A stretch of 64,000 nt of DNA from positions 32,453 to 96,452 of IMG/VR virus record IMGVR_UViG_3300022868_000014. One strand, given 5' to 3'. The first letter of the stretch is position 1; each line of letters starts with the position of its first letter. A program made the position numbers and the translations under genes. Positions 25,679 through 44,109 of the stretch are shown here, in pieces. Origin of the DNA: a virus. Under the pieces are notes generated by a model. The model saw only the letters and a list, made by a program, of their open reading frames with translations, did not search any database and had not been told where the DNA came from.

Positions 25679-26275
25679 ATGGGTACATTAACTCCAGCTC
25701 AAATGTTCGATACATCGTTGAATGTCATTAAAGGACCTTCATTGATGCATAGACTCGACTTTAGAGCTGCACCAGCTGTAGGAGAAACCATCTACGCGGG
25801 TTCTGTTTGCTCTATCAACGCTGCAGGCACATTAGTTGCCGGCTGTGGTGTTGGAGCTGCAATGAATAGGCCTATGCCTATGTTTGCAATTCAGAACATC
25901 GACGATTTTGATACTAACTCTGATGTTGGTAATATCAGCGGAGGCGTGATGAGCGCAATCGTTGCGACGGGTGGTTTCGAAATTGAAACTACAGAGTATG
26001 ATGCTACTGGAACTTACAATCCTAATGATCTTCTTACCGCAGACGGCGTCAATACTGGCGATGTCAAACGTATGGGCGAAAACCCTTACGGTGGTCAAGT
26101 AGCAGTAGGATGTGTCAGCGAGGGTGTAAGCACCAACGCAGACGGTAAATCAGTAGTTCGTTTTTGGACAGTTTACTTGCCAGGCGGCGCAGCAGGACAT
26201 GACGAAAGTAGCACTAGTGAATCTAGTACTAGCGAATCTAGTGCCAGCACAGCAGCCATGAGCACAAGTAGTTAA
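25679..26275 (+). CDS. putative capsid decoration/cement protein, copy A (short Ser/Thr tail)
   Basis: Immediately upstream of the MCP; small beta-rich protein; close paralog at 39338. Confidence 0.6.
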   Translation: MGTLTPAQMFDTSLNVIKGPSLMHRLDFRAAPAVGETIYAGSVCSINAAGTLVAGCGVGAAMNRPMPMFAIQNIDDFDTNSDVGNISGGVMSAIVATGGFEIETTEYDATGTYNPNDLLTADGVNTGDVKRMGENPYGGQVAVGCVSEGVSTNADGKSVVRFWTVYLPGGAAGHDESSTSESSTSESSASTAAMSTSS

Positions 26276-26289
26276 CACAGGAGATAGTT

Positions 26290-27249
26290 ATGAGAATGGA
26301 TCCCGATGTTCGTTTGCTGAACGAAACCATTGTTAATGGACTTACCTCCACTGACGATGTGTTGCGCAAGCAAGCTAAAGAAGGTGTTGATGATTGGCTT
26401 CGTATTAAGATGCGTGAAGATGGCTTCGCCCGTAGGATTCTTCCTCCGGTCCCAGTTACACCCGCAGACCTTGATCGCCAGGTCGACACACCGAAACCTG
26501 TTATTGTAAAGGACCAGGAACCTAATTCCGCTGGAGCATATACTGTTCCCTTCGGAACTACTCCTATGGACCATTACATCATGGGCCCAAGATACCGCGT
26601 CATGTTTGACCGTATCCTGAGTCGTAGATATAACAGCGATGTTAACAACCTCTTAACTTATGACATGGACATCCGTCAGATCCTTAATGACTTTCTTTTG
26701 AAAGACATTATGGCTGAAGAAGACAGAAAGTTCATGGCTGTAGTTGACTCTATCGTAGGCGTAGCCAACACTGTTGACGCGACTCTCGAAAGTTGTCAGA
26801 ATATTACAGTAGGTCCGTTGACTCGTCAATCGTTGGCACATTCCCGTAAGGGCCTGCCATCAACCAACCGTCACTTGAATGCATCAGTTGCACTCGTGAA
26901 TAACATCACTATTTGGGATGTTGTTGCATTAGGCAGAGATGACATTGGTGGTGACCTTGCTGAAGAACTACTGGTTAACGGTTTCGCCGAACGCCAGATC
27001 ATGGGACTCAAATGGGCCATTACTATCAAGACTGACTTGGTAAGCGATGACGAATTGTACATGTTCGCAGAGCCTAAGTACACTGGGGACTTCTTTGTTC
27101 TCGATGACGTTACGATCAGTACTAAGCATGAGGATTATTTTATCGAGTTCTTTGCGTATGAGTGCATAGGAGCTACTATCCAGAATACGGCTAGTTGTGC
27201 CAAAGTTTCCTTCGTGGGAAGTCAGGTCGATTGGCGGACTGGGGTGTAA
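26290..27249 (+). CDS. major capsid protein (probable HK97 fold)
   Basis: 319 aa; follows protease, scaffold and decoration genes; ACAGGAG RBS; followed by a strong terminator; REDGFARRILPP motif and spine-helix-like KDIMAEEDRKF. Confidence 0.75.
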   Translation: MRMDPDVRLLNETIVNGLTSTDDVLRKQAKEGVDDWLRIKMREDGFARRILPPVPVTPADLDRQVDTPKPVIVKDQEPNSAGAYTVPFGTTPMDHYIMGPRYRVMFDRILSRRYNSDVNNLLTYDMDIRQILNDFLLKDIMAEEDRKFMAVVDSIVGVANTVDATLESCQNITVGPLTRQSLAHSRKGLPSTNRHLNASVALVNNITIWDVVALGRDDIGGDLAEELLVNGFAERQIMGLKWAITIKTDLVSDDELYMFAEPKYTGDFFVLDDVTISTKHEDYFIEFFAYECIGATIQNTASCAKVSFVGSQVDWRTGV

Positions 27250-27281: not shown

Positions 27282-27315
27282 AAAACCTCCGGTCTAAGGG
27301 CCGGGGGTTTTTTTT
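27282..27315 (+). terminator. intrinsic terminator after MCP
   Basis: AAAACCTCCGGTC-TAAG-GGCCGGGGG-T8 hairpin with U-tract. Confidence 0.85.
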
Positions 27316-27328
27316 CGCCCATAGCCAC

Positions 27329-27356
27329 TTGACATATCTGAAAAGCACGTTATATT
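27329..27356 (+). promoter_or_regulatory. sigma70-like promoter for HNH gene
   Basis: TTGACA-N16-TATATT, 6 nt before the ATG. Confidence 0.6.
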
Positions 27357-27362
27357 GGTAGT

Positions 27363-28127
27363 ATGGCGAAAAGAAATACATATAATGATAAGCAACAGCG
27401 CAGTAAGAAATATGGGCGGTTGCAGCCTCTTAAGAGCATACTTAAGGGTAAAAACATTTACTGGGAATGTGAGTGTGATTGTGGTCAGATGGTTACTAAA
27501 CGTAAAAACCATCTGATATCCGGAGCAACCACCAGCTGTGGGTGCTTCAATAAAGAAGCATTAATTAAAAGACATGGTGATGCTAATAAAGATTTCGTTG
27601 GAACAGTATTTGGTAGACTAACAGTATTAGAGAGGGCTGAGAATGCCCCTGATGATGCAACGAGATGGCACTGTCGTTGTGTGTGTGGGGAAAAAACTGT
27701 TGTTCTAAAGAACAGTTTGTTGAGGGGTAATACGAGATCGTGTGGGTGTCTGTCTGTTGAGAAGTCCTCAGAACGCATTAAAAAACTTATTGCTAATTAT
27801 AAGGGGGCGAAGCATCCCAGGTGGAACCCCGCCCTAACGGACGAAGACCGTACAGCACGTAGGCACATCCCAGGCTATAAGGAGTTCGTAAAAGAAGCAA
27901 TGGTCAGGGATGATTACACATGCCAGGTATGCACCAAGCATGGAGGTGATCTAGCAGTCCACCACCTGAACTCTTACTCTCAGCACCCGGAGGAGCGCAC
28001 AGAGCTCTCTAATGGTACCACCCTATGCGCAGGATGCCATTCGGCCTTTCATGCGCTCCATGGCTACGCGGAGGCCTCTAAAGAGGACTTCCAGGGATGG
28101 ATCAAAACTAACGCCATTTGTAAATAA
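27363..28127 (+). CDS. HNH homing endonuclease
   Basis: Two WxCxCxCG...SCGC repeats and a C-terminal RDDYTCQVC...VHH...NGTTLCAGCH HNH domain. Confidence 0.85.
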   Translation: MAKRNTYNDKQQRSKKYGRLQPLKSILKGKNIYWECECDCGQMVTKRKNHLISGATTSCGCFNKEALIKRHGDANKDFVGTVFGRLTVLERAENAPDDATRWHCRCVCGEKTVVLKNSLLRGNTRSCGCLSVEKSSERIKKLIANYKGAKHPRWNPALTDEDRTARRHIPGYKEFVKEAMVRDDYTCQVCTKHGGDLAVHHLNSYSQHPEERTELSNGTTLCAGCHSAFHALHGYAEASKEDFQGWIKTNAICK

Positions 28128-28602: not shown

Positions 28603-28899
28603 ATGACTAGAAGACCCGACTTAAAAGATTTAACAGTGTTGGTAAGGAAGACCTGCCCCAAGTGTGAGGGTACCGGCTTTTATGGACCAGCAGGCGCGTT
28701 GTGCTCCTGCCCTAACTGCAGGGGAGTAGCGGGTTGCAGGGTGGATGAAGAGGTACCCCTGTTAGAGCTTATATGTATGATTGAGCAGTATAAACAGGAT
28801 AATGCCTTAGAGCTTTCTGATGGCCTTAGGGAACTCTTTGATGCTAAAGCAGCACGCTTGAACCCAGGGCGTAAAAGGCCTTACAACGGAGAACTATAA
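28603..28899 (+). CDS. small protein with DnaJ-type CxxCxGxG zinc finger
   Basis: CPKCEGTG...CPNCRG; AAGGAG RBS. Confidence 0.6.
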   Translation: MTRRPDLKDLTVLVRKTCPKCEGTGFYGPAGALCSCPNCRGVAGCRVDEEVPLLELICMIEQYKQDNALELSDGLRELFDAKAARLNPGRKRPYNGEL

Positions 28900-29102
28900 T
28901 GCCTAAGCCTAAGATAAAGACAAGAGAGGATGAACAGATTGAAAAGTTCGTTGAGCACTTAGCAGCAGAGGACATTGTTATTATGGACCCAGAGGTGTGG
29001 ACGAATATAATTATGAGGGATATAATGAAGGAAGAGGACCAGAAGTTCATAGACGCAACAAATGCAATACTGGAGGGTAGTACTAAAGATGACATTGACT
29101 AA
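28899..29102 (+). CDS. mini-protein containing a major-capsid-like segment
   Basis: RDIMKEEDQKF aligns with MCP KDIMAEEDRKF; shares DEQIEKFVxHLxAED with the next gene. Confidence 0.65.
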   Translation: MPKPKIKTREDEQIEKFVEHLAAEDIVIMDPEVWTNIIMRDIMKEEDQKFIDATNAILEGSTKDDID

Positions 29103-29493
29103 AGATGAAATAGACCTAATAGCAACGTCCTTATGCGAAGAGGAGGCTAATAAGCCAGTCGATGAACAGATTGAGAAGTTCGTTAAGCACCTTGAAGCTG
29201 AGGATAAGAAGCGATACGAGGTTAAGTTTGATAGCAAGGTGACAGCCAGATACAGTGCTGATAGCATGGTGACAGCCAGATACAGTGCTGAGGATAAGAA
29301 GCGATACGAGGTTAAGTTTGATAGCAAGGTGACAGCCAGATACAGTGCTGATAGCATGGTGACAGCCAGATACAGTGCTGATGTTGAGATGATCCAAACC
29401 TATGACATGGATATAAGAAAGATACTGGAAGACCAGATACTTAAAGATATGGATATACCAAAGGAGCTGATGCATGGCAGGCAAAACAGATAA
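29089..29493 (+). CDS. mini-protein containing a repeated major-capsid-like segment
   Basis: GGAGG RBS before ATG 29089; TYDMDIRKILEDQILKD aligns with MCP TYDMDIRQILNDFLLKD. Confidence 0.7.
   Translation: MTLTKDEIDLIATSLCEEEANKPVDEQIEKFVKHLEAEDKKRYEVKFDSKVTARYSADSMVTARYSAEDKKRYEVKFDSKVTARYSADSMVTARYSADVEMIQTYDMDIRKILEDQILKDMDIPKELMHGRQNR
29197..29381 (+). repeat. exact 90-nt tandem duplication with nested 30-nt repeats
   Basis: A-B-B'-A-B-B' pattern; B = tgatagca(a/t)ggtgacagccagatacagtgc; stays in frame. Confidence 0.9.
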
Positions 29494-29653
29494 ACGTAGA
29501 CCGGCAAGGATAACAGAGAAAGAGTGGTCTGATAACTGGGCTTTAGCATTTAAAACTGCAAAGAAGAACCATGGTAAGTGGACAGCAGTACACCCTAAGT
29601 GGCGGAACAAACAATCAGACATAACTAATTTACCGGAGATTGAAGATGAGTAA
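29474..29653 (+). CDS. 59-aa hypothetical protein (MAGKTDKRRPARITEKEWSDNW...)
   Basis: AAGGAG RBS at 29461; fills the gap between genes; below the ORF track cutoff. Confidence 0.55.
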   Translation: MAGKTDKRRPARITEKEWSDNWALAFKTAKKNHGKWTAVHPKWRNKQSDITNLPEIEDE

Positions 29654-29855
29654 GCGGACAATAAAGCTTAAAGGCACGGACAAGGAACTTAAACTTACTA
29701 AGGTATCTATGGTAAAATTTGAGCATAGTAAGAGCGAGTTTATATACTTGGAGAAGATTAAAGGCACCGAGGATGAGTGGCGCCTTACATACACGGAGAA
29801 GACTATACCAGAGATCAAAGAGTTAACAGCCATGGAGATTATAAGAGATGAGTAA
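29646..29855 (+). CDS. hypothetical protein
   Basis: GGAG RBS; overlaps both neighbours by 8 nt. Confidence 0.55.
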   Translation: MSKRTIKLKGTDKELKLTKVSMVKFEHSKSEFIYLEKIKGTEDEWRLTYTEKTIPEIKELTAMEIIRDE

Positions 29856-30567
29856 CACACTTAGAGACGGTACAATGACTGAAGACATACGCCTTGACCG
29901 TATAGAAGAATTTGATGAACGCAGTAAGGAGTACCCTTTAATGCTTGCACCCAGCAAGAAAGCCAGATCATATACATGGCGCTGCAATGCCCACCTCGAC
30001 CAGGGCACAGAAGGGAGTTGTGTCGGCCACGGCATTGCCCATGAGCTGGCAGCCAGACCGGCAGAGGTGGTAGGCATGACACATACGTATGCTAAGGAAA
30101 CTATCTACTGGGCAGCACAGCGCATTGATAGATGGCCAGGCGGGGCATACCCGGGCGCGAAGAACGACGGGCGCTTCTATGAAGGCACCGCTGTACTAGC
30201 AGGAGTAAAGATAGCTCATAAGCTTGGTTGGTTCGATAGCTACAGATGGGCCTTTGGCATAGACGACCTTATTATGGGAGTTGGCCATAACGGCCCAGCT
30301 GTGATGGGACTTAAATGGTACGAAGGAATGATAAACCCAGATACTAATAACTTTATACAGCCAACAGGAAAGACCATAGGAGGCCATTGCTTGCTCTGTA
30401 ACGCAATAAACGTTAAAGAGTCATACTTCACCCTACATAATAGCTGGGGTGCTCAGTGGGGCTTTAAAGGGGAATGTAAGATAACATTTGATGATATGGA
30501 TAAGTTATTGAAGCAACGAGGAGAAGCAGTCTTCTTCCAAAAGAGGCATAGAAATGCTCAACCATAA
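29848..30567 (+). CDS. papain-like (C1) cysteine peptidase
   Basis: DQGTEGSCVGHG (oxyanion Gln and catalytic Cys), GGHC (His), NSWGAQWG (Asn). Confidence 0.85.
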   Translation: MSNTLRDGTMTEDIRLDRIEEFDERSKEYPLMLAPSKKARSYTWRCNAHLDQGTEGSCVGHGIAHELAARPAEVVGMTHTYAKETIYWAAQRIDRWPGGAYPGAKNDGRFYEGTAVLAGVKIAHKLGWFDSYRWAFGIDDLIMGVGHNGPAVMGLKWYEGMINPDTNNFIQPTGKTIGGHCLLCNAINVKESYFTLHNSWGAQWGFKGECKITFDDMDKLLKQRGEAVFFQKRHRNAQP

Positions 30568-32197: not shown

Positions 32198-32365
32198 ATG
32201 GAAGACCCAAATGTATCTGCAGAGTTTGCCGGCACCTGTCGAGGATGTGGCGGTAATGTTAATGTGCTTATTGAGGATGAAGAGCACACCTATCAATGTG
32301 AAAACAATAAATGTGAGTATAGCGAAGGGGAAATTAATGACGCAGAACCTGAGTGGGTAGACTAA
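32198..32365 (+). CDS. 55-aa zinc-ribbon protein
   Basis: AAGGAG RBS; CRGC...CENNKC; TTGTAA-N17-TATGTT upstream; below the ORF track cutoff. Confidence 0.6.
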   Translation: MEDPNVSAEFAGTCRGCGGNVNVLIEDEEHTYQCENNKCEYSEGEINDAEPEWVD

Positions 32366-32367
32366 TT

Positions 32368-32383
32368 GTCTAACGCGTTAGAC
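32368..32383. promoter_or_regulatory. 16-bp perfect palindrome GTCTAACGCGTTAGAC, copy 2
   Basis: Intergenic, 4 nt before tRNA-Ser. Confidence 0.7.
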
Positions 32384-32387
32384 TTTT

Positions 32388-32477
32388 GGAGGGGTGGCTC
32401 AATGGTACAGCACCGCACTGCTAATGCGGCATTCGCTTTATAGCGATCTCCCCGTTCAAGTCGGGGTCCCTCCGCCA
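32388..32477 (+). tRNA. trnS: tRNA-Ser(GCT)
   Basis: ccgca-ct-GCT-aa-tgcgg; long variable arm; G73; CCA. Confidence 0.9.
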
Positions 32478-39337: not shown

Positions 39338-40123
39338 ATGGGTACACTAACACCAGCTCAAATGTTTGATCATACTTTGAACGTCATAAAAGGACCTTCA
39401 CTTATGCACAGACTAGACTTTAGAGCAGCACCGGCCGCTAGCGAAGCAATCGCTGCCGGATCTGTTTGTTCGATCAACGCCGCAGGGCAACTAATTGCTG
39501 GTTGTACCGTCGGAGCCGCAATGAATAGGCCTATGCCTATGTTCTCAATTCAGAACGTCGATGACTTTGATGCCAACTCGGACGTAGGCAATATAAGTGG
39601 TGGTGTTATGAGTGCGATCGTAGCAACAGGTGGATTTGAAATTGAAACTACAGAATATGATACAGCAGGTACATATAACCCCAATGACTTTCTAACAGCA
39701 GACGGAGTCAATACTGGCGACGTTAAACGCATGGTCGAGGCACCTTATGGAGGCCAAGTAGGCGTTGGTGTTGTAAGTGAAGGTACTAGTACCAATGCAG
39801 ACGGCAAATCAGTAATTCGCTTCTGGACAGTTTATCTACCAGGCGGAGCCGGTGGCTATGATAACAGCAGCTCAAGTAGCTCAGACATTCTGAATTACAG
39901 CTCAAGCAGCAGCAGCTCAAGTAGCACACTAGCTAAGAGTACAAGTAGCTTAAGCAGCTCAAGCAGCTCAAGCAGCTCAAGCAGTAGCACAGATGTTCTA
40001 GACTACAGCACAAGCAGTGTTAACAGCTCAAGCAGTACTTCAGAGGTCTTAGACTACAGTACAAGCAGTGATAACAGTGCAAGTACAGTAGGCAAGAGTA
40101 CAAGCAGTACTAGCGTACCATAA
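39338..40123 (+). CDS. putative capsid decoration protein, copy B (long Ser-rich tail)
   Basis: First ~170 aa nearly identical to ORF 25679; ~83-aa Ser/Thr tail. Confidence 0.7.
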   Translation: MGTLTPAQMFDHTLNVIKGPSLMHRLDFRAAPAASEAIAAGSVCSINAAGQLIAGCTVGAAMNRPMPMFSIQNVDDFDANSDVGNISGGVMSAIVATGGFEIETTEYDTAGTYNPNDFLTADGVNTGDVKRMVEAPYGGQVGVGVVSEGTSTNADGKSVIRFWTVYLPGGAGGYDNSSSSSSDILNYSSSSSSSSSTLAKSTSSLSSSSSSSSSSSSTDVLDYSTSSVNSSSSTSEVLDYSTSSDNSASTVGKSTSSTSVP

Positions 40124-43340: not shown

Positions 43341-44027
43341 ATGTCAAAAAAGATAATTGCCCATGTAGGTGACCGCTTTGGGCGTCTAGTACTAGCAGCA
43401 GAGGTCCCCGAAGGCGTCAGAACCCCTTCCCGTTACAAGTATCCATGTATATGTGATTGTGGTACTAAGGTTGATGTACTCCTTTCATCCTTACGATCAG
43501 ACAACACTACGAGTTGTGGATGCTACGGAAGGGAACAGAGAGCAGCGGCTGCTACAAAACATGGACTAAGAAAACACCCGCTTTATACAGTATGGGATGA
43601 TATAAAAGGGCGTTGCTTCCGTGAAAAGGCCACTGGATATATTTATTATGGTGGGAGAGGTATTCTAATGCACAGACCATGGGCAGACGACTTCAAATGC
43701 TTTTATGATTGGTGCATAGAGAACGGTTGGACCAAAGAACTAGAGCTTGATAGAAGAGAAAATGATGGTAATTATGAGCCCTCTAATTGTCGCTTTGTGA
43801 CGCATAGGCAGAATAGTTTAAATACAAGGGCACAGAAGAGCTTAAGTGGTTATACAGGAGTACATCCCGATAAGAATAGCTGGGCCGCCCGTATTATTGT
43901 TAAAGGGACTTTATTTTTATTAGGTAATTTCCCTACAAAAAGAGATGCTGTAGTTGCTCGCAACACATTCATCAAGTCCCGGGGGCTGGAAAATGAGTAC
44001 GAAATTCAGACTATAAAGGGTATTTAA
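43341..44027 (+). CDS. HNH/AP2-domain homing endonuclease
   Basis: CICDCG...SCGC, YGGRGI, LDRRENDGNYEPSNCRF, C-terminal AP2-like SGYTGV...WAARI...LGNF. Confidence 0.85.
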   Translation: MSKKIIAHVGDRFGRLVLAAEVPEGVRTPSRYKYPCICDCGTKVDVLLSSLRSDNTTSCGCYGREQRAAAATKHGLRKHPLYTVWDDIKGRCFREKATGYIYYGGRGILMHRPWADDFKCFYDWCIENGWTKELELDRRENDGNYEPSNCRFVTHRQNSLNTRAQKSLSGYTGVHPDKNSWAARIIVKGTLFLLGNFPTKRDAVVARNTFIKSRGLENEYEIQTIKGI

Positions 44028-44040
44028 TACCAGCTGTCAG

Positions 44041-44064
44041 AAATGTCTAACGCGTTAGACATTT
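44041..44064. promoter_or_regulatory. palindrome copy 3, extended to 24 bp (AAATGTCTAACGCGTTAGACATTT)
   Basis: Perfect inverted repeat overlapping the -35 of TTGAAA-N17-TACATT (44063-44091). Confidence 0.7.
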
Positions 44065-44109
44065 GAAAATACAGTGCTTTATGGGTACATTATTAACTTA
44101 GGAGGATAC

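What the first reader, a model, noticed from the sequence alone, without database searches (positions are those of the whole stretch)
28899..29493. Two mini-genes re-encode consecutive pieces of the phage's own major capsid protein: candidate capsid decoys
Seen: with its internal repeats collapsed, ORF 29089 reads RYEVKFDSKVTARYSADVEMIQTYDMDIRKILEDQILKDM versus MCP RYRVMFDRILSRRYNSDVNNLLTYDMDIRQILNDFLLKDI (22/40 identical, ungapped). ORF 28899 reads NIIMRDIMKEEDQKFIDATNAIL versus the next MCP stretch DFLLKDIMAEEDRKFMAVVDSIV (9/23 identical, most others conservative). Both are fused to a shared non-MCP leader, DEQIEKFVxHLxAED, have intact frames and RBSs, and lie in the accessory/tRNA region. 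Known: some defence systems (CapRel SJ46, Lit) are triggered by capsid protein. Inference: these are epitope decoys that titrate a capsid sensor, or dominant-negative inhibitors of capsid assembly by competing phages.
Basis: partly seen in the sequence, partly recalled or inferred. Interest (0 to 1): 0.85.

Follow-up and report, generated by a model that had tools for sequence, protein, structure and literature searches.

The report
Split capsid-fragment mini-gene with shared tag
A large uncultured phage keeps, in an optional tRNA island just behind its capsid gene, two tiny genes that each join the same short helix to an old, diverged copy of a slice of the capsid protein; they were once one gene, still look selected, and probably imitate the capsid protein towards an unknown partner.

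Summary
ORF 29089-29493 (mini2) and ORF 28899-29102 (mini1) carry diverged copies of MCP residues ~99-141 and ~129-157 (shuffle z 14.8 and 6-7; MCP-family HMM E 6e-14 and 9e-8). Both carry the same non-MCP tag, DEQIEKFVxHLxAED.

New facts:
- The pieces overlap by about 13 residues and lie in reversed order.
- A 16-nt tandem duplication at the junction (unique in the window) split one 192-codon two-module gene into the two ORFs.
- The locus is polymorphic in near-identical phages, by repeat copy number and by an in-frame fusion between the tags.
- One diverged 64-aa homologue (P0012) shares eight non-MCP residues and the same tail with mini2.
- Synonymous sites against the MCP are saturated (pS 0.84-1.0) while pN is 0.26-0.36, and codon usage is gene-like.
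- Relatives with 82-87% identical MCPs lack the whole ~5-kb HNH/tRNA island.
- Mini2 copies the best-conserved MCP block: E-loop return strand to the first half of the spine helix.

Best reading (about 0.45): selected soluble mimics of that MCP segment, most likely antagonists of capsid-sensing host immunity. No partner, binding or expression was shown, and decay remains a real rival (0.25). This scan noted the same gene class in at least eight other large phages. I found no published description.

The parts
26290..27249 (+). Major capsid protein gene (319 aa, HK97 fold), the source family of the copied segments
   Evidence: tblastn to an annotated MCP of Salmonella phage Arash. PHROG 2522. 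AF2 model plus Foldseek HK97 hits. 1319 homologues.
27282..27315 (+). Hairpin plus U-run after the MCP stop: intrinsic terminator that closes the head operon
   Evidence: Fold -21.2 kcal/mol, z -4.3, 0 of 200 shuffles as stable. The U-run is read.
27329..27356 (+). Sigma-70-like promoter (TTGACA-16-TATATT, 11/12) at the head of the accessory island
   Evidence: Consensus scan only. No terminator-like site was reported between it and 30800.
27363..28127 (+). HNH endonuclease gene, first gene of the island
   Evidence: Pfam PF01844, E 2e-7, above the cut-off.
28603..28899 (+). 98-aa protein with two CxxCxGxG-type motifs. Its stop overlaps the mini1 start (TAATG).
   Evidence: Weak Anti-TRAP / DnaJ zinc-finger match, below the cut-off. 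The overlap is read.
28899..29102 (+). Mini1, 67 aa: N-terminal tag plus a copy of the MCP spine helix (residues ~129-157)
   Evidence: An identical protein occurs on 16 public contigs.
28929..28972 (+). Tag (leader) copy 1, DEQIEKFVEHLAAED
   Evidence: Direct repeat D8, 86% identical to copy 2.
28992..29078 (+). MCP-like body of mini1 (residues 32-60, aligned to MCP HMM positions 129-157)
   Evidence: hmmsearch alignment. 70% nt identity to MCP 26696-26735 over 40 nt.
29082..29113 (+). 16-nt tandem duplication (14/16) that shifts the frame and splits one ancestral ORF into mini1 and mini2
   Evidence: It is the only such site in the window. Deleting either copy gives one 192-codon ORF.
29089..29493 (+). 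Mini2, 134 aa: linker, tag, expanded copies of MCP strands 99-117, then MCP 118-141 and a repeat-derived tail
   Evidence: P0009 occurs on 10 contigs and the one-repeat form P0004 on 15.
29161..29204 (+). Tag (leader) copy 2, DEQIEKFVKHLEAED
   Evidence: The tag region is predicted helical in the low-confidence AF2 model (H24-43).
29197..29376 (+). Perfect 90-nt tandem repeat (2 copies), each holding two 30-nt sub-repeats that encode (K/M)VTARYSAD
   Evidence: TRF and the repeat finder. Copy number varies between public contigs.
29338..29451 (+). Best-conserved MCP-like core of mini2 (P0009 residues 84-121, aligned to MCP HMM positions 102-139)
   Evidence: hmmsearch. 21 of the last 26 aligned residues are identical to P0012 (counted by eye).
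29404..29463 (+). 42-nt-period internal repeat: DMDIRK(IL) and DMDIPK(EL). The non-MCP tail is a copy of the helix start.
   Evidence: the repeat finder D6, 83%. P0012 has the same IPK tail.
29474..29653 (+). Next small ORF (59 aa). It overlaps the mini2 end by 20 nt and belongs to the same tightly packed operon.
   Evidence: Gene-like codon usage.

Best explanation
**What it is.** The two ORFs are the halves of one accessory gene built from two modules. Each module is a short amphipathic helical tag (DEQIEKFVxHLxAED) followed by an old, diverged copy of part of the most conserved stretch of an HK97-fold MCP. That stretch runs from the E-loop return strand and P-domain strands into the spine helix.

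**How it came to look like this.**
- A 16-nt tandem duplication shifted the frame. Module 1 (mini1, spine helix 129-157) now ends at 29102.
- Module 2 (mini2, strands plus helix 99-141) restarts at an ATG inside the duplication, overlapping mini1 by 14 nt.
- The gene sits in a lineage-specific island of about 5 kb (HNH, 12 tRNAs, small ORFs, a peptidase). The island has a sigma-70-like promoter of its own behind the MCP terminator.

**How it probably works (inferred, not shown).** The peptides are made as soluble, mostly helical mimics of the MCP segment. They compete with the real MCP for a partner that recognises that segment. The partner I favour is a host immune sensor triggered by capsid protein, so the peptides would act as antagonists or decoys. 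In-frame repeat expansion and recombination between the tags would vary the number and mix of displayed motifs.

**Shown here.** MCP origin, age, the split, the polymorphism, a constrained homologue, and gene-like codon usage.
For: **Homology to the MCP.**

**The copies are old but constrained.**
- Nucleotide identity to the MCP is 59%.
- Identity by codon position is 25, 30 and 16 of 40.
- Against the MCP, pS is 0.84-1.0 (saturated) while pN is 0.26-0.36.

**No recent donor.** An exhaustive phmmer of 1.84 billion representatives found no MCP at E<=1e-3, so no MCP on record is a close donor. The best of the 120 closest MCP homologues is 60% identical over this stretch.

**A constrained homologue, P0012 (64 aa).**
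- It shares with mini2 eight residues that are absent or rare in 120 MCPs, and the same IPK tail.
- The two form a clade with support 0.91 on long branches.
- It probably lies next to a 98%-identical MCP, because both sit on a JGI contig of 3557 bp. This is an inference.

**It looks like a working gene.**
- Codon-usage log-likelihood ratio is 0.25-0.61 per codon, like the phage's real genes.
- Starts and stops overlap along the operon.
- All three internal repeats (30, 42 and 90 nt) are in frame.

**Which piece was copied.**
- Mini2's piece is the 7th most conserved of 277 MCP windows.
- This parallels T4 Gol, a 29-residue stretch from the most conserved region of gp23 that defines the trigger for Lit (PMC3014915).

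**Accessory status.** Relatives with 82-87% identical MCPs lack the island. Two complete relatives have no second MCP piece.

**Background.** Many defence systems sense MCPs (PMC13728456).
Against: - No partner, binding, transcript or peptide was observed.
- The gene is split by a frameshift. Four structural alleles co-exist, and natural variants delete mini1's MCP part, so at least that half is dispensable.
- Only one diverged homologue exists among 1.84 billion representatives, and its DNA could not be fetched, so no true dN/dS between mini-genes is available.
- The tags exchange sequence (variant P0010), so their low dN/dS may reflect gene conversion.
- By the T4 Gol precedent, an MCP peptide made alone could trigger a sensor and not block it.
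- The host is unknown.
Confidence: 0.45

Rival explanations
1. Decaying remnant. An MCP fragment was once captured (or a once-useful gene has been abandoned) and is now drifting towards loss in a recombination-prone island. The ORFs persist by chance and by the short time elapsed.
For: - A frameshifting 16-nt duplication splits the gene.
- Perfect, copy-number-variable repeats are present.
- Natural deletion/fusion alleles occur on 4 contigs.
- Two non-synonymous variants of mini1 exist (P0006, P0010).
- The mini-genes are absent from all fetched relatives.
- The family is very rare.
Against: - Synonymous sites against the MCP are saturated, yet 55% of residues and most MCP-invariant positions are kept.
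- P0012 keeps the same ends after about 45% divergence.
- There is no stop in 201 codons over both ORFs, although the two copies of the 16-nt duplication already differ at 2 sites.
- Codon usage is gene-like.
- Three of the four internal duplications are in frame.
Confidence: 0.25
2. Weapon against other phages. The fragments act as dominant-negative subunits, or as sponges for scaffold or protease, and poison capsid assembly of co-infecting relatives. The phage's own, differently sequenced MCP would be spared.
For: - The copied stretch is almost invariant in related MCPs, so one mimic could hit many relatives.
- On a 40-column tree the mini clade sits among MCPs of a different sub-lineage, not with the phage's own MCP (supports 0.71-0.87).
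- The locus is accessory, variable and island-borne.
Against: - The phage's own MCP carries the same invariant residues, so self-poisoning would be hard to avoid.
- The tree placement rests on 40 columns and is weak.
- No interaction was demonstrated.
Confidence: 0.15
3. Helper of the phage's own head assembly, for example a chaperone-like peptide that caps the spine-helix or E-loop surface of unassembled MCP, or tunes capsid size.
For: - The locus is close to the head module.
- It is translationally coupled to a DnaJ-type zinc-finger mini-protein.
- The copied region belongs to the part of HK97-fold proteins that rearranges on maturation (own knowledge of the HK97 spine helix).
Against: - Phages with 82-87% identical MCPs, and two complete relatives, lack it.
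- It lies outside the head operon, behind a terminator.
- Mini1's MCP part is deleted in natural variants.
Confidence: 0.08
4. DNA-level element. The MCP-like DNA serves the neighbouring HNH homing endonuclease as a target look-alike or repair scar, and the ORFs are incidental.
For: - An HNH gene sits directly behind the MCP.
- An earlier scan note describes capsid-site copies beside an HNH promoter in a relative (e1-5754821).
Against: - Nucleotide identity to the MCP gene is only 59% (70% over the best 40 nt), with third positions near random.
- The copies lie 1.5 kb from the HNH promoter.
- The conservation is at the protein level.
Confidence: 0.03

Closest known systems
Gol region of T4 gp23 with the Lit protease and EF-Tu (PMC3014915)
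   Same: A short stretch from the most conserved part of a major capsid protein is enough to be recognised by a host exclusion system. Mini2 likewise carries the best-conserved block of its MCP family.
   Different: Gol is part of the capsid gene itself and triggers defence. Here the stretch is a separate, diverged gene joined to a tag. No sensor is known, and the proposed effect (blocking) is the opposite and untested.
Full-length MCP paralogues such as T4 gp24 (vertex protein); own knowledge
   Same: Both arose by duplication of the capsid gene and are retained in the same genome.
   Different: gp24 keeps the whole fold and is a building block. The mini-proteins keep only 29-43 residues, cannot form the fold, and are optional.
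Phage counter-defence by competition for a sensor, e.g. DSAD1 against DSR2, which senses the tail tube (PMC11087589)
   Same: A small phage protein would occupy a sensor of a virion protein.
   Different: As far as I know (own knowledge, not checked in the paper), DSAD1 is not derived from the trigger protein. Here the candidate is a slice of the trigger itself, and the function is not shown.
Tagged capsid-fragment mini-genes noted earlier in this scan (e1-5689507, e1-5689486, e1-5693727, e1-5725544, e1-5833741). These are unpublished AI notes.
   Same: Small ORFs each pair a different MCP slice with one shared short helix. They sit behind the MCP gene or in accessory regions of large phages. 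One case has an MCP of the same PHROG (2522).
   Different: Here the tag is N-terminal and has a different sequence. There are only two modules, they were one ORF that a frameshift later split, and the locus is polymorphic in the population.

Membership tests
HK97-fold major capsid protein family (PHROG 2522 relatives) | Significant sequence match to the family profile | tested here: met
   hmmsearch with a 68-sequence MCP profile gives P0004 6e-14, P0003 9e-8 and P0012 1.7e-18. Window-wide values are 7.5e-10 and 2.8e-4.
HK97-fold major capsid protein family (PHROG 2522 relatives) | Complete fold: N-arm, E-loop, P-domain and A-domain | tested here: not met
   Only HMM positions 102-139 (mini2) and 129-157 (mini1) of 318 align. 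No other MCP piece lies nearby in any frame. The proteins derive from the family but are not capsid subunits.
Gol-type capsid peptide (T4 gp23 / Lit / EF-Tu) | Short segment taken from the most conserved region of the MCP | tested here: met
   MCP 99-141 ranks 7th of 277 windows of 43 residues for conservation in 120 homologues. The Gol description is from PMC3014915.
Gol-type capsid peptide (T4 gp23 / Lit / EF-Tu) | Binds EF-Tu and activates a Lit-like protease | not testable with these tools
   The host and any sensor are unknown. There is no sequence relation to gp23.
Anti-defence mimic or decoy protein | Binds a host sensor and prevents its activation | not testable with these tools
   No host genome or sensor is available. 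This requires experiments.
Tagged capsid-fragment mini-genes (class noted earlier in this scan) | Neighbouring small ORFs, each carrying a different MCP slice | tested here: met
   Mini1 covers 129-157 and mini2 covers 99-141.
Tagged capsid-fragment mini-genes (class noted earlier in this scan) | The same short non-MCP helix on every member | tested here: met
   13/15 aa and 38/44 nt are shared. The tag is not similar to the MCP and is helical in a low-confidence model. The motif occurs nowhere else in the 96-kb contig.
Tagged capsid-fragment mini-genes (class noted earlier in this scan) | Kept by selection in related phages | tested here: inconclusive
   There is one diverged homologue with shared derived residues, and pN is far below pS against the MCP. 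No DNA of the homologue was available, and fetched relatives lack the genes.
Homing-endonuclease target look-alike (I-TevI-operator-like) | Near-identical DNA copy of the target site next to the nuclease promoter | tested here: not met
   59% nt identity (70% over the best 40 nt), located 1.5 kb from the promoter.
Pseudogene or recombination debris | Stops or frameshifts and loss of the codon-position pattern | tested here: inconclusive
   One frameshifting 16-nt duplication is present. However, both resulting ORFs are open, codon usage is gene-like, and the codon-position pattern is 25/30/16.

The most novel reading that the evidence does not exclude
The locus is a modular, recombining cassette of capsid-epitope mimics. 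Each tag-plus-slice module would neutralise a host sensor that recognises the most conserved part of unassembled capsid protein. Slippage (30, 42 and 90-nt repeats) and tag-to-tag recombination would tune valency and specificity. It would be one member of a widespread, undescribed class of counter-defence genes in large phages.
Probability: 0.25. Interest if true: 0.85.

Novelty: new variant of a known kind. Interest (0 to 1): 0.62.

Why it matters
Capsid proteins are among the commonest triggers of bacterial immunity, including Lit, CapRel and the capsid-sensing Thoeris and CBASS cases reviewed in PMC13728456. I found no phage countermeasure described that imitates the trigger itself.

If these peptides block such sensors, or poison rival capsids, they would define a new route of counter-defence or inter-phage conflict. 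They would also point directly at the capsid segment that hosts recognise.

The locus offers ready-made natural variants for testing: the split form, the fused form, and forms with one or two repeat units. If instead the locus is decaying, it is still a clear example of how gene fragments are born, tagged, split and lost in phage accessory islands.

Tried and rejected

- Complex prediction of MCP plus P0004 returned no verdict (score 0.00). It counts neither for nor against binding.
- AF2 of mini2 alone gave a low-confidence all-helical model (pLDDT 64, pTM 0.25). It is used only for the helical tendency of the tag and core.
- ESM Atlas with P0012 gave low recognition and uninformative hits.
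No DNA of the variant contigs or of P0012 was obtained, and there is no expression evidence.

**Searches for more copies that found none.**
- Viral-contig scans with P0004, P0012 and their alignment.
- A metagenome scan with the mini-gene alignment.
- tblastn of P0012 against phage records.
- 25 relatives' loci and two complete relatives, which hold only their MCP genes.

**Ideas rejected.**
- The tag is a diverged MCP N-arm or E-loop piece. This is not significant (shuffle z -1.6 and 1.1), and the HMM extension to positions 59-98 has low posterior support.
- The locus is a degraded full-length second MCP gene. No other MCP piece exists in any frame.
- The fragment is a recent capture from a known MCP. 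None is closer than about 60%.
- The tag is a targeting signal shared with other proteins. The motif is unique to these two ORFs.
- The DNA is a homing-endonuclease target mimic. DNA identity is too low.

**Literature.** Five searches found no description of capsid-fragment mini-genes.

Full report
**Setting.** The window is the right 64 kb of a 96.4-kb IMG/VR contig, estimated about 52% complete.
- The phage belongs to a large uncultured group with genomes of about 185-200 kb. Its MCP has 1319 homologues.
- The nearest isolates share only about 29% MCP identity: Vibrio phage D69 and Salmonella phage Arash.
- The MCP gene is w26290-27249. Its AF2 model (pLDDT 72.6) has strands at 101-105, 107-110 and 114-117, a short helix at 118-123 and a long helix at 128-156. 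Foldseek places it among HK97 capsids at probability 1.0.
- The long helix is therefore the spine helix, and residues 101-117 are the E-loop return strand and the P-domain strands.

**Observation.** Both similarities are real.
- Mini2 (the P0004 form) against the MCP gives BLASTP E 3e-10 and Smith-Waterman z 14.8, with 0 of 3000 shuffles reaching the score.
- Mini1 gives E 5e-5 and z 6.1-6.8.
- A 68-sequence MCP profile matches mini2 at HMM 102-139 (E 6e-14) and mini1 at 129-157 (E 9e-8).
- In a six-frame scan of the whole window, nothing except the MCP and these two ORFs matches.
- The shared leader is 13/15 aa and 38/44 nt identical. It is not significantly MCP-like.
- The two pieces overlap at 129-141, and their genomic order is reversed relative to the MCP.

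**One gene, split.**
- A 16-nt tandem duplication (29082-29097 and 29098-29113, 14/16 identical) sits exactly at the junction. It is the only site of that kind in 64 kb.
- Deleting either copy fuses both ORFs into one 192-codon frame.
- The ancestral gene thus had two modules, each a tag plus an MCP slice.
- Mini1 now stops at 29100-29102. Mini2 restarts at ATG 29089 inside copy 1, 11 nt after a GGAGGG that also encodes Leu-Glu-Gly of mini1.
- The mini1 start overlaps the stop of an upstream zinc-finger mini-protein (TAATG). The next ORF overlaps the mini2 end by 20 nt. The ORFs form a tightly coupled operon.

**Repeats and polymorphism.**
- Mini2 contains a perfect 90-nt repeat in 2 copies, built from 30-nt sub-repeats that encode VTARYSAD. 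This corresponds to MCP LSRRYNSD.
- Its non-MCP tail, DMDIPKEL, is a 42-nt-period copy of DMDIRKIL.
- Public proteins from near-identical phages show four alleles:

| Allele | Protein(s) | Contigs |
|---|---|---|
| Split, one 90-nt unit | P0004 | 15 |
| Split, two 90-nt units (this window) | P0009 | 10 |
| In-frame fusion between the two tags, mini1's MCP part removed | P0007, P0005 | 2 + 2 |

- Mini1 itself (P0003) occurs on 16 contigs.
- Variant P0010 carries the mini2 version of one tag residue in mini1. The tags therefore exchange sequence.

**Age and constraint.**
- Nucleotide identity to the MCP is 59%. Identity by codon position is 25, 30 and 16 of 40.
- pS is 0.84-1.0 (saturated) and pN is 0.26-0.36.
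- The MCP stretch is nearly invariant among relatives. Almost all replacements therefore lie on the mini-gene branch, yet they are far from saturation.
- No MCP among 1.84 billion representatives reaches E 1e-3 with mini2. The best of the 120 closest MCP homologues is 60% identical. A recent capture from a known MCP is therefore unlikely.

**The homologue P0012.**
- The same exhaustive search found one diverged homologue, P0012 (64 aa, 52% identical).
- It shares with mini2 eight residues that are absent or rare in 120 MCPs (M109, S115, K130, Q135, M140, I142, P143, K144), the same tail, and part of the tag (KHL).
- The two form a clade with support 0.91 on branches 5-12 times longer than MCP tips.
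- P0012 and an MCP 98% identical to this one are each recorded on a JGI contig of 3557 bp. They are probably the same contig. If so, sister phages carry very different alleles of the mini-gene. I could not verify this.

**Coding signal.** Codon usage of both ORFs is typical of the phage's genes, and the shifted frames score strongly negative.

**Context.**
- A strong hairpin with a U-run ends the MCP transcript.
- A sigma-70-like promoter (11/12) follows at 27329-27356.
- After it come an HNH gene, 12 tRNAs, small ORFs and a papain-like peptidase.
- In relatives with 82-87% identical MCPs, the MCP is followed directly by homologues of w32198, w32838 and w33425. Roughly 27.3-32.2 kb is therefore a lineage-specific island.
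- Two complete relatives (185 and 201 kb) have no second MCP-like piece.

**Interpretation.**
- The data fit an old, selected, optional gene whose product displays MCP motifs on a common helix.
- Mini2 carries the best-conserved MCP block (rank 7 of 277). T4 Gol, the trigger of Lit, likewise comes from the most conserved region of gp23 (PMC3014915).
- MCPs are frequent immune triggers (PMC13728456).
- I therefore favour mimicry towards a host capsid sensor (0.45). Next come decay (0.25), interference with rival phages (0.15), a role in the phage's own assembly (0.08) and a DNA-level role for the HNH enzyme (0.03).
- The frameshift split, the deletion alleles and the rarity of the family keep decay a serious rival.
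- Nothing here shows expression, binding or a partner.

**Earlier work.**
- Earlier notes of this scan describe the same architecture (MCP slices on one shared short helix) in at least eight other large phages. They are leads, not evidence.
- Five literature searches found no published description.

Noticed in passing
L031:1900-1960 (G003, a complete 201-kb relative): The MCP gene of this relative is read in two frames that meet near codon 148 (AEEDGK|...). It looks like a one-base loss in a T run. This could be an assembly error or a real frameshift at the end of the stretch that mini2 copies.
   Followed up: partly
window 25679-26275 and 39338-40123: The 198-aa gene just upstream of the MCP has a paralogue 13.7 kb away, 87% identical over 175 aa, with a longer Ser-rich tail. 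In relatives L003, L004 and L006 two copies lie close together just upstream of the MCP.
   Followed up: partly
outside the window: G000:C1:3400-11800: About 25 paralogous ORFs of roughly 100 aa lie in tandem. They share a conserved C-terminal motif of about 20 residues.
   Followed up: no
window 32364-32388 and 44041-44065: A 25-nt element holding the perfect palindrome GTCTAACGCGTTAGAC occurs twice, 92% alike. One copy is at the right edge of the tRNA island. The other lies directly after the second HNH gene (43341-44027).
   Followed up: no
window 28603-28899: A 98-aa protein with two DnaJ/Anti-TRAP-type CxxCxGxG motifs is translationally coupled to mini1. An earlier scan note links four-cysteine mini-proteins with capsid pieces in other phages.
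   Followed up: no
window 29848-30567: A 239-aa peptidase (PHROG 16701, E 1e-54) with a papain-like Q...C...H...N/W pattern lies inside the accessory island.
   Followed up: no
window 27282-27356: A strong terminator hairpin (-21.2 kcal/mol) is followed within 20 nt by a near-consensus sigma-70-type promoter, in a phage that encodes its own multisubunit RNA polymerase. The island may be read by host polymerase.
   Followed up: partly
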